Shown one piece after another: positions 3,001 through 5,980 of a stretch of DNA of 64,000 nucleotides. Location: positions 96,001-160,000 of the forward strand of contig CAWEXO010000013.1 of the NCBI GenBank assembly GCA_963813025.1, written 5' to 3'. The notes under the pieces are model-generated. The model made no database searches, was not told the DNA's origin, and saw only the letters and a list, made by a program, of their open reading frames with translations. Every line of letters begins with the position of its first letter. The first letter of the stretch is position 1. A program made the translations under genes and the position numbers. The DNA is from an uncultured Verrucomicrobiae bacterium. Its GTDB lineage: Bacteria; Verrucomicrobiota; Verrucomicrobiia; Chthoniobacterales; JAFAMB01.

Positions 3001-3156
3001 GACCTGAATCGTCGCGCCGGTCCTCGTTGAAGGCGAACTGGCGACAATCTGTGGCGTAGTCGGGAGCTCATTCCCACGCCAATCGCCCGGTGGCGTACTA
3101 CAGATTACCCAAAGTCCGACAGACCCGGGAAGCCTGTACCACTTCTTCCGAAATGA

Positions 3157-3176: not shown

Positions 3177-3235
3177 AAAAAAACCTGAGAAGCTGGAAGA
3201 CGTTCTATGGGTTTTCAAGGGGGATTTTGCGCAAA

Positions 3236-4519
3236 TTAATTGCAATTAATTTCTTGGAATCGGAGGACCCAGGAACCGTGTTTGACTTGATTGCGGTGGT
3301 GTAACTCTGGGTTGTACGGTGTTGCGATCTAGCCACATTTTATGGATGATTTTAAGCCAGCGTTGTCCCAGAGCAGCGTAAGGCGTCTGGCATGGGAATG
3401 GTCTTTCGCGCGGTGGGCTTTGTAGTAGATCTGGGCCCAGGCACAGCGCCTAAGACTTTGTTCGGCAAAACAGATGGACGGCGTGACGGAGGTATTGTCA
3501 CAAGCCCAGCGCTGATGGCACTCCCAATGTCTGCCGGAGCGTTTGGTCACTGGTGCAGTGCCTGCGAAGCACTGGAGGTTTTGGGCATCCGCCCTCGAAG
3601 CGTTCCCGATCATCGCCAATCTCGGCTAACAAGCGCGGAGCGAGCTTAGGGCCCAGCGCCAGGTAAGGAGCCGAACAGGTCATGATCGGGATGGGACTGG
3701 AAAAGTTCTTCGATCCGTTTGCGGTACAGTCCAAGCTGGTTTTCAACGGCAAAAAGCATTTCCACCAGACTAAGGGTCAACATGCTTTTGGCGTTAGTCG
3801 GTCGGTTCGCTGCCACAGAACTCGGTGGCTTTGGCAAAGAGTTCCATCCGGCGTGGGCCGCTTTCGTTGCGCCAAAGATGCCGACTATGCAGGAACTTTT
3901 CCCACTGCCGCTTGCCGGCCTTTTCCAGAAGCTGAGGCGTGGGGAAACGCTGCAAAAACATCCAGGCTGAAGGTCGCACTCCAGTCTTCGAAGGCTTCCA
4001 AAGCGTCGGATAGTACTCTGCCAAGGCATGGCGCAACTGATTGATAAAGGCGGTGCGCTGTTCAATGAGCCCGACCTCATCGCGGCAGAGTAGCCGGAGC
4101 TCTTTGATCAGAGGATCCTCCGGACGAAGTGGCTTCCAGTTCTGACCGTCCAGACGCAAGGCGTCGGCAAAACTCCAGGCATCGAGTCGGTCGTCTTTGA
4201 CCCCGCTGGGCGCCTTGCGTTGTCGGTAGGCTTGAGCGCTCTTGGGGTTAAGTGGATAAACCTGCATCCCGGCTTCCAACAGTTGCTCCACGGCCGGCCC
4301 TTGGCTGGTCTCGATCGCAAAAGGAATCGAGCCGTAGGGCTTGATCCGTTCACGGAATTTCTTCCAGCCTAAAGCCGAGTGTTCGATCTCGAAGTCTTCG
4401 ACCACCTTACCTTGGGGGTCGACGACGACGACGGAGTGTTTTTGACTGGCCCAATCTAGTCCACCAAAACCACGGTTTTCTAGCCAACTGCCTGATTCTT
4501 GACTTGGGGGATTATTCAT
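3236..4519 (-). pseudogene. IS110-family transposase with several frameshifts (real decay or assembly error)
   Basis: GLDWASQKH, AIET, KDDRLDA, SLPGAGPKLAPRLLAEIG and AGTAPVTKRSG motifs spread over ORFs 3794..4714, 3646..4080, 3498..3752 and 3329..3619. Confidence 0.88.
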
Positions 4520-4539
4520 CGCTGTAAATGGCCTTTTTT

Positions 4540-4796
4540 TCTGTTGTCGTCGCTTTGCCCTGCCATCCATCGAGCTGATATAGTGGCCTTCTTGAGGCTT
4601 CGTTCTATTAGATGTTGCGGCAAGGGCCTCCGGCTCGCCCGGTAGTCTATTTCCAATCCTCTTGGGGTTAGCAGGCTGACCGTGATCGAGCCGAGGCAGG
4701 ACGTCCGCCGACAATATTTTCGCCCGCGGCGGAGTTATTCACAACCTCGCTTCGCCTGGCTTGGGCGGCCGCTTCGCTCGGTCATGAATAACTCCG
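4540..4796 (-). ncRNA. Predicted IS110 bridge-RNA-like noncoding RNA (element A)
   Basis: Has a 5' 67-nt hairpin and a stem 4626-4637/4687-4697 with an internal loop. A second loop carries ATAGAACG and ATATCAG, which match the donor junction. Boundaries approximate. Confidence 0.65.
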
Positions 4797-4815
4797 AAAC
4801 TGATATCAGCTTGTC

Positions 4816-5924
4816 CTAAGAGATGACCTTCTCCGGATTGAGACTAGTCAAATCATCCGGCACAAAGAGGCCGTCCTTCCGCACCAGCTTGTCGATCGAA
4901 ATAGATTTCGCCTCCGCCGTATTCCGGACGCTGGATACAGACCAAGTCCCAATGAACCTGACTGCGGTTGCCGTTGTCAGCCCGTTCGTACGCTTGTCCC
5001 GGAGTAAAATGGAAGGAGCCGGCAATCTTTTCGTCGAACAGAATGTCTCGCATTGGCTCCCGGATATAGGGATTAAAGCCAAGAGCGAATTCGCCGATGT
5101 ACCGAGCGCCTTCGTCTGAATCCAGAATCGCGTTGAGTCCTTTGTGATTATTTGCGTGGCCTCGATCATTTGCCGTTTTTGAAAGCAAGGCGAACGGAAT
5201 CAAAGGCCGTTCCCTGGTAGACCGTTGGCGCATTGAACTGAATGTGACCTTTAACAGAATCTCGAACCGGCGAGGAAAAAACCTCGCCATCGGGAATATT
5301 GGCCGGCCGCCGCACACGATCGCAGGAATGCCTTTAATGCTGAAGCGAAGATCGGTTCCCGGTCCGATGATTTGGACTTGATCCGTTTTCCATCAAGTTT
5401 TGAGAGCCTCCATGCCGGGATCCATCTTGGAGTAATCGAGTGTGCAAACCTTGAAATACAAATCTTCAAAGGCCTCGGTGCTCATCCCGGCCATTTGCGC
5501 CATCGCCGGCGTCGGCCATCGCAACACGACCCATTTCGTTTTGTTAACCCGATGGTCAACCGCCGGTTGAATCAATTTCATCGCCGAAGCATAATTTCGG
5601 AAGGCACATCCGAAAATTCGGTAATGTTATGGCTGCCCCGGAATCGCGACATACGCATCCATCAAAGCCATTCGGCTTAATTCGTACTCAGCCGTCGTTT
5701 GAAACTGCGCTTCTGGCAGCTCTACGGAGCAGTTCGCGATTGACGATGCCCGACTGCAAATTGACGAAAGGATGCGCTCCTCTTTCGCGCGAAGCGCGCA
5801 CTAGCGCAATAACCATTTCCGGAGGAACATCGAACGCGTCGATCAACACTCGTTCGCCTTTCTGAAGATGGGTAGAAAAACCCGTCAGGACCTCGGCAAG
5901 CTTCGTAAAACGCGGATCAAACAT
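4816..5924 (-). CDS. Aminopeptidase, M29 (AmpS/AmpT) family, with frameshifts
   Basis: [13 protein letters not shown]..., [36 protein letters not shown] and SQVHWDLV across several frames. Confidence 0.88.
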
Positions 5925-5980
5925 AATAGAAATTAGGGATAATCCAGGAACCCGGCATTGCAACTTTGGCAAAGCCGGTC

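What the first reader, a model, noticed from the sequence alone, without database searches (positions are those of the whole stretch)
3187..4818. IS110 element A: ends, REP target and donor-binding guides can be reconstructed
Seen (minus strand): the left junction is GGACAAG-CT-GATATC and the right junction is ATAGAACGT-CT-TCCAGC. The empty site GACAAGC-TTCCA-GCTTCTC is a REP hairpin. In the 5' noncoding region, ATAGAACG (4608-4601) is identical to the right end (3208-3201). ATATCAG (4581-4575) is the reverse complement of core plus left end. The two flank a small inner hairpin (gcct-caaga-aggc). The following CT also pairs with the target-derived AG, like a handshake guide. The circle junction gives TTGAAA-N17-(TGn)TATCAG. 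Target loop: TGGAA (4655-4651) matches the right flank, but the left guide (CAGCCTGCT) matches only GCT. Knowledge: this is the IS621-type bridge RNA architecture with a CT core.
Basis: partly seen in the sequence, partly recalled or inferred. Interest (0 to 1): 0.72.

Follow-up and report, generated by a model that had tools for sequence, protein, structure and literature searches.

The report
Jumping gene using a neighbour's guide
This is an RNA-guided jumping gene of a known kind whose ends and RNA are easy to read, but it sits in a repeated DNA hairpin that its own guide does not spell, most likely because the guide RNA of a related jumping gene in the same cell put it there.

Summary
A 1,612-bp IS110 element (4809-3198, minus strand) with an IS621-type bridge RNA and CT core. 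The ends, donor guides, REP site and junction -35 box are confirmed. Across 60 related insertion sites in 43 genomes or records, the left donor guide matches in 58 and the right in 60, and the RNA fold shows compensatory changes in 22 of 28 pairs. In relatives the right target guide has a fixed register, and TGGAA is 3 nt out of it. Read in register, the loop predicts CAGCCTG-CT-ATTTC, not the occupied GGACAAG-CT-TCCAG: 2.5 of 12, the worst of 60 sites (53 score 9 or more). A second element in this genome sits in the same REP against its own guide. In another genome a copy sits in the target of a co-resident element (11 of 12). Donor ends barely vary in the clade, so I favour mobilisation in trans by a REP-targeting relative (0.55). 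Such a guide exists in a related genome but was not found in this 80%-complete assembly. The recombinase gene carries 10 one-base indels.

The parts
3198..4809 (-). IS110 element, 1,612 bp, CT core at both ends (4809-4808 and 3199-3198)
   Evidence: related contigs from 4 of 4 public runs leave the stretch at 4810
4810..4816 (-). Left target flank GGACAAG, left arm of a REP hairpin; abuts the stop codon (4818-4816) of the upstream M29 aminopeptidase frame
3185..3197 (-). Right target flank beginning TCCAG, loop and right arm of the REP
3124..3140 (-). Second, empty REP of the composite repeat (ACAGG-CT-TCC type)
4800..4807 (-). Left end = right donor (GATAT); gives the -10-like hexamer TATCAG (4805-4800) on the circle
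4731..4795 (-). Probable 5' stem-loop of the left end (inverted arms AGTTATTCA / TGAATAACT)
   Evidence: read from the sequence; both arms recur in relatives; covariation not counted
4669..4677 (-). Left target guide AGCCTG-CT-A, 2 nt shorter than usual; does not match the occupied site
   Evidence: only 31-nt loop among 92 distinct loops
4655..4669 (-). Inner stem-loop of the target-binding loop, with one C-A mismatch
4647..4654 (-). Right target guide in register, GGAAAT-AG, predicts CT-ATTTC
   Evidence: register scan
4645..4646 (-). Target-loop handshake bases AC, complementary to donor GT (3201-3200)
   Evidence: 47 of 48 and 35 of 48 Watson-Crick pairs in relatives
4601..4608 (-). Left donor guide ATAGAACG
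4586..4598 (-). Inner stem-loop of the donor-binding loop
   Evidence: 27-31 compensatory changes at three of its four pairs
4573..4581 (-). Right donor guide ATATCAG (4581-4575) and donor-loop handshake CT (4574-4573; only the C covaries)
3236..4519 (-). IS110 recombinase gene (DEDD RuvC domain plus Transposase_20 domain), broken by 10 one-base indels between about 4004 and 3324
   Evidence: PF01548 E 1.4e-29, PF02371 E 5.1e-5; indels against three intact relatives
3200..3218 (-). Right end: -35-like TTGAAA (3218-3213) and left donor ATAGAACGT (3208-3200)

Best explanation
An IS621-type bridge-recombinase element. Shown by sequence: the left end encodes a bridge RNA whose donor loop reads the joined ends ATAGAACGT-CT-GATAT, and whose target loop, in the register used by all relatives, reads about CAGCCTG-CT-ATTTC. 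Inferred from IS621 and ISPpu10: the element forms a circle, the junction makes a promoter, and a recombinase tetramer joins donor and target at CT. Inferred for this copy: it was not placed by its own target loop. Donor ends are nearly the same across the clade while target loops differ, so a co-resident relative whose loop reads the REP (ACAGG/ACAAG-CT-TCCAG) acted on this element's circle in trans. It did so either as a whole foreign bridge RNA or as the target-loop half of a two-RNA complex. The likely helper is the sister lineage whose two surviving right ends in this genome also abut TCCAG and whose 5' end is missing from the assembly.
For: Own-loop score 2.5 of 12, lowest of 60 sites; 53 of 60 score 9 or more, against 1.7% of 5,409 foreign pairs. 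The best-fitting foreign loop (10 of 12) is the REP-reading loop of G120, whose elements sit at AGCATAGG-CT-TCCAG, one of them (L080) with the same two donor ends as this element. In G000, 4 of 8 right ends of the clade are followed by TCCAG, which follows 0.24% of CT sites. One of them, L022, has the same loop as two sisters that sit in their cognate GGTGCATC-CT-TTCTT sites (1,637 of 1,653 bases identical to L164), yet lies in the REP (5 of 12), so guide change after insertion cannot explain it. L022 alone of the three has G at donor -2, the base that an AC-type handshake takes in 7 of 7 relatives. In G612, L131 fits neither of its two own loops (4.5 of 12) but fits the loop of co-resident L155/L178 (11 of 12; recombinases about 59% identical), and that loop is cognate at L239. 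All 3 sites failing on both arms are in genomes with several loop types (3 of 16 against 0 of 43, Fisher p 0.017). The own predicted target has 0 perfect and 3 near-perfect sites in G000, at chance level, whereas two other resident loops have 9 and 16 perfect sites. The mechanism is allowed: target and donor loops of one IS621 complex come from two RNA molecules (PMC11208158, passages), and co-expressed bridge RNAs cross-react in E. coli (10.64898/2026.04.29.721476, passages).
Against: No REP-reading loop of this clade was found in G000: 7 model hits, none with that guide; the assembly is 80% complete. The helper is therefore inferred for this genome and seen directly only for L131. The own guides look oddly REP-like out of register: a 7-mer and a 5-mer match the commonest REP, which 0.06% of random guides and 0 of 91 other loops do (the test was post hoc). 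The left guide is 2 nt short and the region is error-rich. The Fisher test is biased, because co-resident loops were searched in only some genomes and kin are not independent. The L022 donor G is one base among about 15 differences. Cross-reactivity has been shown for one recombinase with two RNAs, not for different recombinases.
Confidence: 0.55

Rival explanations
1. The element inserted with a REP-matching loop of its own, and the loop changed afterwards (decay, template switching, miscopying from REP DNA) or is wrong in the assembly.
For: Only 31-nt loop among 92; C-A mismatch in the inner stem; 10 indels in the gene and a frameshifted neighbour gene; both guides share words with the REP (7-mer and 5-mer, 0.06% of random guides); the nearest resident relative (L017) also abuts TCCAG.
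Against: 13 edits separate these guides from the known REP-reading guides, the top of the 8-13 range over 89 loops, while the conserved bases around them are intact. The closest relatives in the tree (L083, L121; weak support, 88/81) sit at TCCCT sites. It does not explain L022 or L131.
Confidence: 0.25
2. One reading: this loop itself reads the REP through TGGAA in a shifted register plus GCT, helped by the hairpin, and might then also have placed L022 and the two other TCCAG ends.
For: TGGAA is an exact complement of T-TCCA (4.4% by chance); it is the only complete loop in the assembly with any likeness to the REP; a target hairpin raises ISPpu10 activity (10.64898/2026.03.19.712850, passages).
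Against: The register is fixed in 53 cognate sites; the first T belongs to the inner stem; the left guide scores 2.5 of 7. In ISPpu10 the right guide is stringent, and 10 of 11 variants that kept the hairpin but lost pairing were dead.
Confidence: 0.1
3. Off-target or half-match insertion with no foreign guide, or a flank reshuffled by later recombination.
For: Half-match and unassigned insertions occur with IS621 (10.64898/2026.08.31.748434, sections 8-9); L155 sits in a donor-like site; L022's left flank shares 5 of 8 bases with its left donor guide.
Against: The two flanks rebuild one intact REP composite, so they were not reshuffled. Neither arm matches own target or donor guides in register. 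Four ends next to the same 5-mer are not expected from scattered off-targets.
Confidence: 0.1

Closest known systems
IS621 bridge recombinase (IS110 group; Durrant 2024 PMC11208160 and Hiraizumi 2024 PMC11208158, passages read)
   Same: Long left end with bridge RNA before the gene, two loops with inner stem-loops, CT core in the right guides, left guides identical to the top strand and right guides complementary, handshake bases, REP target; best solved-structure match (8wt6, E 1.6e-16).
   Different: Distant protein (about 405-415 aa in intact relatives against 328 in the solved chain). The left donor guide covers positions -9 to -3 (7 nt in 58 of 60) and does not run into the core. The right target guide pairs over 7 nt. 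This copy does not match its own target loop, and its gene is broken.
ISPpu10 and ISPpu9 of Pseudomonas putida (10.64898/2026.03.19.712850; PMC12288879; passages read)
   Same: CT core, REP hairpin target, junction promoter (ISPpu10); two related elements share one REP target.
   Different: ISPpu10 is described as reading its REP with its own guides; here the resident guide does not read the site.
Bridge RNA cross-reactivity in TRADE editing (10.64898/2026.04.29.721476, passages read)
   Same: A donor goes to the target of another bridge RNA that shares the CT core.
   Different: Engineered, one recombinase with two RNAs. Here it is natural, between different elements with 51-59% identical recombinases, and inferred from genomes only.
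Half-match recombination (10.64898/2026.08.31.748434, abstract and sections 8-9 read)
   Same: Explains insertions that do not match the target loop; excision needs only the donor loop.
   Different: Predicts a match to one arm of the element's own RNA; this site matches neither arm but matches both arms of a relative's loop.

Membership tests
IS110 family, IS110 (IS621-like) group | DEDD RuvC-like domain plus Transposase_20 domain | tested here: met
   PF01548 E 1.4e-29 and PF02371 E 5.1e-5, both over cut-off; profile of relatives matches IS621 and ISCro4 chains
IS110 family, IS110 (IS621-like) group | Long non-coding left end, short right end, core dinucleotide at both junctions | tested here: met
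   about 290 nt before the start, 38 nt after the stop, CT at both ends
Bridge RNA | Two internal loops, each with an inner stem-loop, supported by covariation | tested here: met
   22 of 28 pairs with compensatory changes in 71 sequences; no Rfam family in the window
Bridge RNA | Donor loop matches the joined ends | tested here: met
   8/8 and 7/7 here; 58 of 60 and 60 of 60 in the set; the C5 paralog changes guide and end together
Bridge RNA | Target loop covaries with insertion sites across the clade | tested here: met
   53 of 60 sites score 9 or more of 12; null 1.7% of 5,409
Bridge RNA | Target loop of this copy matches its own insertion site | tested here: not met
   2.5 of 12, lowest of 60; this bears on how the copy arrived, not on family membership
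Bridge RNA | Handshake guides | tested here: met
   target loop +1/+2 against donor -1/-2: 47 and 35 of 48; donor loop +1 against target -1: 44 of 48; +2 no signal, 12 of 48
IS110 family, IS110 (IS621-like) group | Junction promoter on the circle | tested here: inconclusive
   -35 box conserved at 16-18 nt; this element's -10 lacks the final T; activity not testable
IS110 family, IS110 (IS621-like) group | Intact, active recombinase; circular intermediate; expressed RNA | not testable with these tools
   10 one-base indels, decay or assembly error not resolved; only contigs of relatives were laid

The most novel reading that the evidence does not exclude
Co-resident IS110 elements of one clade share a nearly fixed donor code and so move each other to each other's targets in nature, even with recombinases only 51-59% identical. 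An incoming element whose guide has no target in the new host can land in a safe REP by borrowing a resident's target loop. This element, L022 and L131 would be three such footprints.
Probability: 0.5. Interest if true: 0.65.

Novelty: new member of a known kind. Interest (0 to 1): 0.5.

Why it matters
The element itself is one more bridge recombinase. The mismatch is the point. If natural bridge RNAs are borrowed between different elements, insertion sites cannot always be predicted from an element's own guide. Orthologs sharing a CT core and donor code would not be orthogonal, which matters for editing strains that already carry IS110s. Elements could also survive host switches before their guide is retuned. 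The clade offers named pairs for a direct test.

Tried and rejected
Rfam: 0 matches in the window. An exact-pattern scan of metagenome contigs for this target loop gave 1 match in an unrelated context, so no second carrier of the loop was found there. Sequencing runs: 24 listed, none holding half the words, no RNA holder listed. The 4 laid runs are contigs of relatives and cannot test this strain's loop, its frameshifts or circles. A phylum-wide protein search gave matches in 2 of 401 genomes at a strict cut-off, no new loci. Other IS110 groups in G000 (33 hits examined) did not show CT-TCCAG at their approximate ends. No repeated motif resembling the own left guide precedes CT-RTTTYY sites (1,217 sites). 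I checked whether L131 carries the matching loop in cis: it has two loops and neither fits. The promoter scan covered only the right end in its genomic form and found none. L140's right junction was mis-picked (cognate); it is in the 60 but was dropped. One search's covariation counts also leave out L001, L022 and L131 and keep one row per loop (48 of 59). The first scoring forced a core match and under-scored some sites; one search replaces it.

Full report
Observation. The element runs from the CT at 4809-4808 to the CT at 3199-3198 on the minus strand, 1,612 bp. It encodes an IS110 recombinase (PF01548 E 1.4e-29, PF02371 E 5.1e-5). A profile of 12 intact relatives matches only IS621 and ISCro4 among solved structures. 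The gene has 10 one-base indels against each of three intact relatives. Five of them are also seen as differences in related public contigs, and the upstream aminopeptidase is frameshifted too, so decay and assembly noise cannot be told apart. There is no second copy in G000.

Boundaries and site. The left end CT-GATATCAG recurs with different flanks in relatives. Contigs from 4 of 4 laid runs leave the stretch at 4810 (2, 2, 6 and 4 contigs). The rebuilt empty site belongs to a genome-wide composite repeat with two hairpin types (17 and 30 copies of the core motifs; 47 by a looser pattern). An empty paralog of the C11 relative's site shows the same CT crossover.

The RNA. I collected relatives; record titles are mostly Verrucomicrobiota and Planctomycetota. 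An alignment of 71 distinct bridge RNAs folds into two internal loops with inner stem-loops; 22 of 28 pairs show compensatory changes. Among 91 sites with a left flank, 60 in 43 genomes or records had both flanks. The left donor guide matches 7 of 7 in 58 of 60 and 8 of 8 in 37 of 60; the right donor guide matches 5 of 5 in 60 of 60. Donor ends are nearly fixed: AGAGAAC in 46, ATAGAAC in 7, ATAGAAA in 4 of the 60. Handshake bases covary at three of four positions (47, 35 and 44 of 48; the fourth 12 of 48, p 0.65, one row per loop, without L001, L022, L131, L140). A -35 box lies 16-18 nt before the -10 position on the computed circles (mean 4.43 of 6 in 49 elements against 1.9-2.9 when shifted); this element's -10 lacks the final T found in 32 of 49.

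The target loop. In relatives the loop is 33-34 nt (89 of 92) and predicts the site: 53 of 60 sites score 9 or more of 12, against 1.7% of 5,409 foreign pairs. The right guide ends in the AG that pairs with the core; matches average 6.49 of 7 in that register and 1.45-1.77 in five others. Read this way, this element's guides are AGCCTG-CT and GGAAAT-AG, which predict about CAGCCTG-CT-ATTTC. The occupied site scores 2.5, the lowest of 60. TGGAA is 3 nt out of register and uses a stem base; such a match arises in 197 of 4,508 non-cognate pairs. The predicted target is not enriched in G000 (0 perfect, 3 near-perfect, shuffle median 1 and maximum 7), unlike the targets of two other resident loops (9 and 16 perfect); the C5 paralog's target is also not enriched (0 and 2).

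Who placed it. Four of 8 right ends of this clade in G000 are followed by TCCAG: this element, L022, the 5'-truncated C11 relative (83% identical) and a remnant on C5. TCCAG follows 0.24% of CT sites. L022 shares its loop with two sisters in cognate sites but lies in the REP, and alone has G at donor -2. A relative in G120 has a loop that reads this REP (10 of 12 for both this site and L022's) and sits in AGCATAGG-CT-TCCAG; its shortened copy L080 has the same two donor ends. The clearest case is in G612: L131 fits neither of its two loops (4.5) but fits the loop of co-resident L155/L178 at 11 of 12, a loop that is cognate at L239; the two recombinases are about 59% identical. The three double failures all lie in genomes with several loop types (3 of 16 against 0 of 43, p 0.017), a biased comparison because only some genomes were searched whole.

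Against this reading. No REP-reading loop of the clade is in the G000 assembly (7 model hits; pattern search; completeness 80%). The guides here share a 7-mer and a 5-mer with the commonest REP, out of register or at the wrong arm; 0.06% of random guides and 0 of 91 other loops do so (a post hoc test). With the 2-nt-short left guide, this keeps open that the loop was altered after insertion, although it is 13 edits from the known REP guides. In a tree of 22 rows over 281 bases, the element groups with L083, L121 and the C11 relative with weak support.

Known background. From passages read: target and donor loops in one IS621 complex come from two RNA molecules, and split loops work (PMC11208158). 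Natural target motifs mostly fit their loops with 0-2 mismatches, and the RNA works in trans (PMC11208160). Co-expressed bridge RNAs cross-react unless cores differ (10.64898/2026.04.29.721476). Elements lacking the 5' region suggest RNA supply in trans (10.64898/2026.08.14.744561). Target-loop-only RNA is the main species for CazIS110-1 (10.1101/2025.10.25.684509). ISPpu9 and ISPpu10 share a REP target (PMC12288879). The hairpin aids but does not replace pairing (10.64898/2026.03.19.712850, abstract and passages). Half-match insertion: abstract and sections 8-9 of 10.64898/2026.08.31.748434. Six searches listed no paper whose title, abstract start or read passages report natural cross-targeting between different IS110 elements. 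The library lacks most subscription papers, and I read no supplements; the site tables of PMC11208160 and the closed bioRxiv supplements may bear on this.

Verdict. The anatomy is confirmed and ordinary for the IS110 group. The target-loop reading is corrected. The mismatch is best explained by a borrowed guide (0.55), with post-insertion guide change (0.25), shifted-register reading (0.1) and unguided off-target insertion (0.1) as rivals.

Noticed in passing
L134, L136, L137, L182 (G616); L130, L131 (G612); L144: Relatives with two or three tandem target-binding loops before one donor loop; different G616 copies fit different loops of the array.
   Followed up: partly
L028 (G000 C3:83k) and G000 C5:277k: A resident IS110 targets the end of another multicopy insertion sequence (TACACAA-CT-TTTGA, 16 perfect sites); an empty copy of that site lies in the IS that interrupts the C5 paralog.
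   Followed up: partly
G000 C13:491527-491692 (L264): Orphan bridge RNA fragment with no recombinase gene; an internal deletion fuses the 5' stem to the left guide, while the donor loop is nearly intact.
   Followed up: partly
G000 C11:72143-73620 (L017): The closest resident relative lacks its 5' end; the left half of its REP site lies a few hundred bases upstream in inverted orientation, which suggests a rearrangement or misassembly.
   Followed up: partly
L040 (G219), L036 (G206): Left guides that share 10 and 7 bases with the other strand of the same REP; L040 sits after AGCTGGAAG, so the hairpin may be targeted in both orientations.
   Followed up: no
G047: L015, L019, L062, L065: Three loop variants differing at 2-3 bases in one genome; L062's left flank fits L065's guide better (5.5 of 7) than its own (3.5 of 7).
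   Followed up: partly
L155 (G612): Sits after a donor-like sequence rather than its target, a possible natural half-match insertion.
   Followed up: no
L080 (G120): Internally deleted element of about half a kilobase with intact ends in the REP site.
   Followed up: no
window 4816-5980 (minus): M29 aminopeptidase frame broken by several frameshifts; its stop codon abuts the REP.
   Followed up: partly
G000, 40 PF01548 matches: The genome holds at least four other multicopy IS110/IS1111-type groups; an unexplained motif AGTTGG-CT-RTTTYY occurs 53 times.
   Followed up: no
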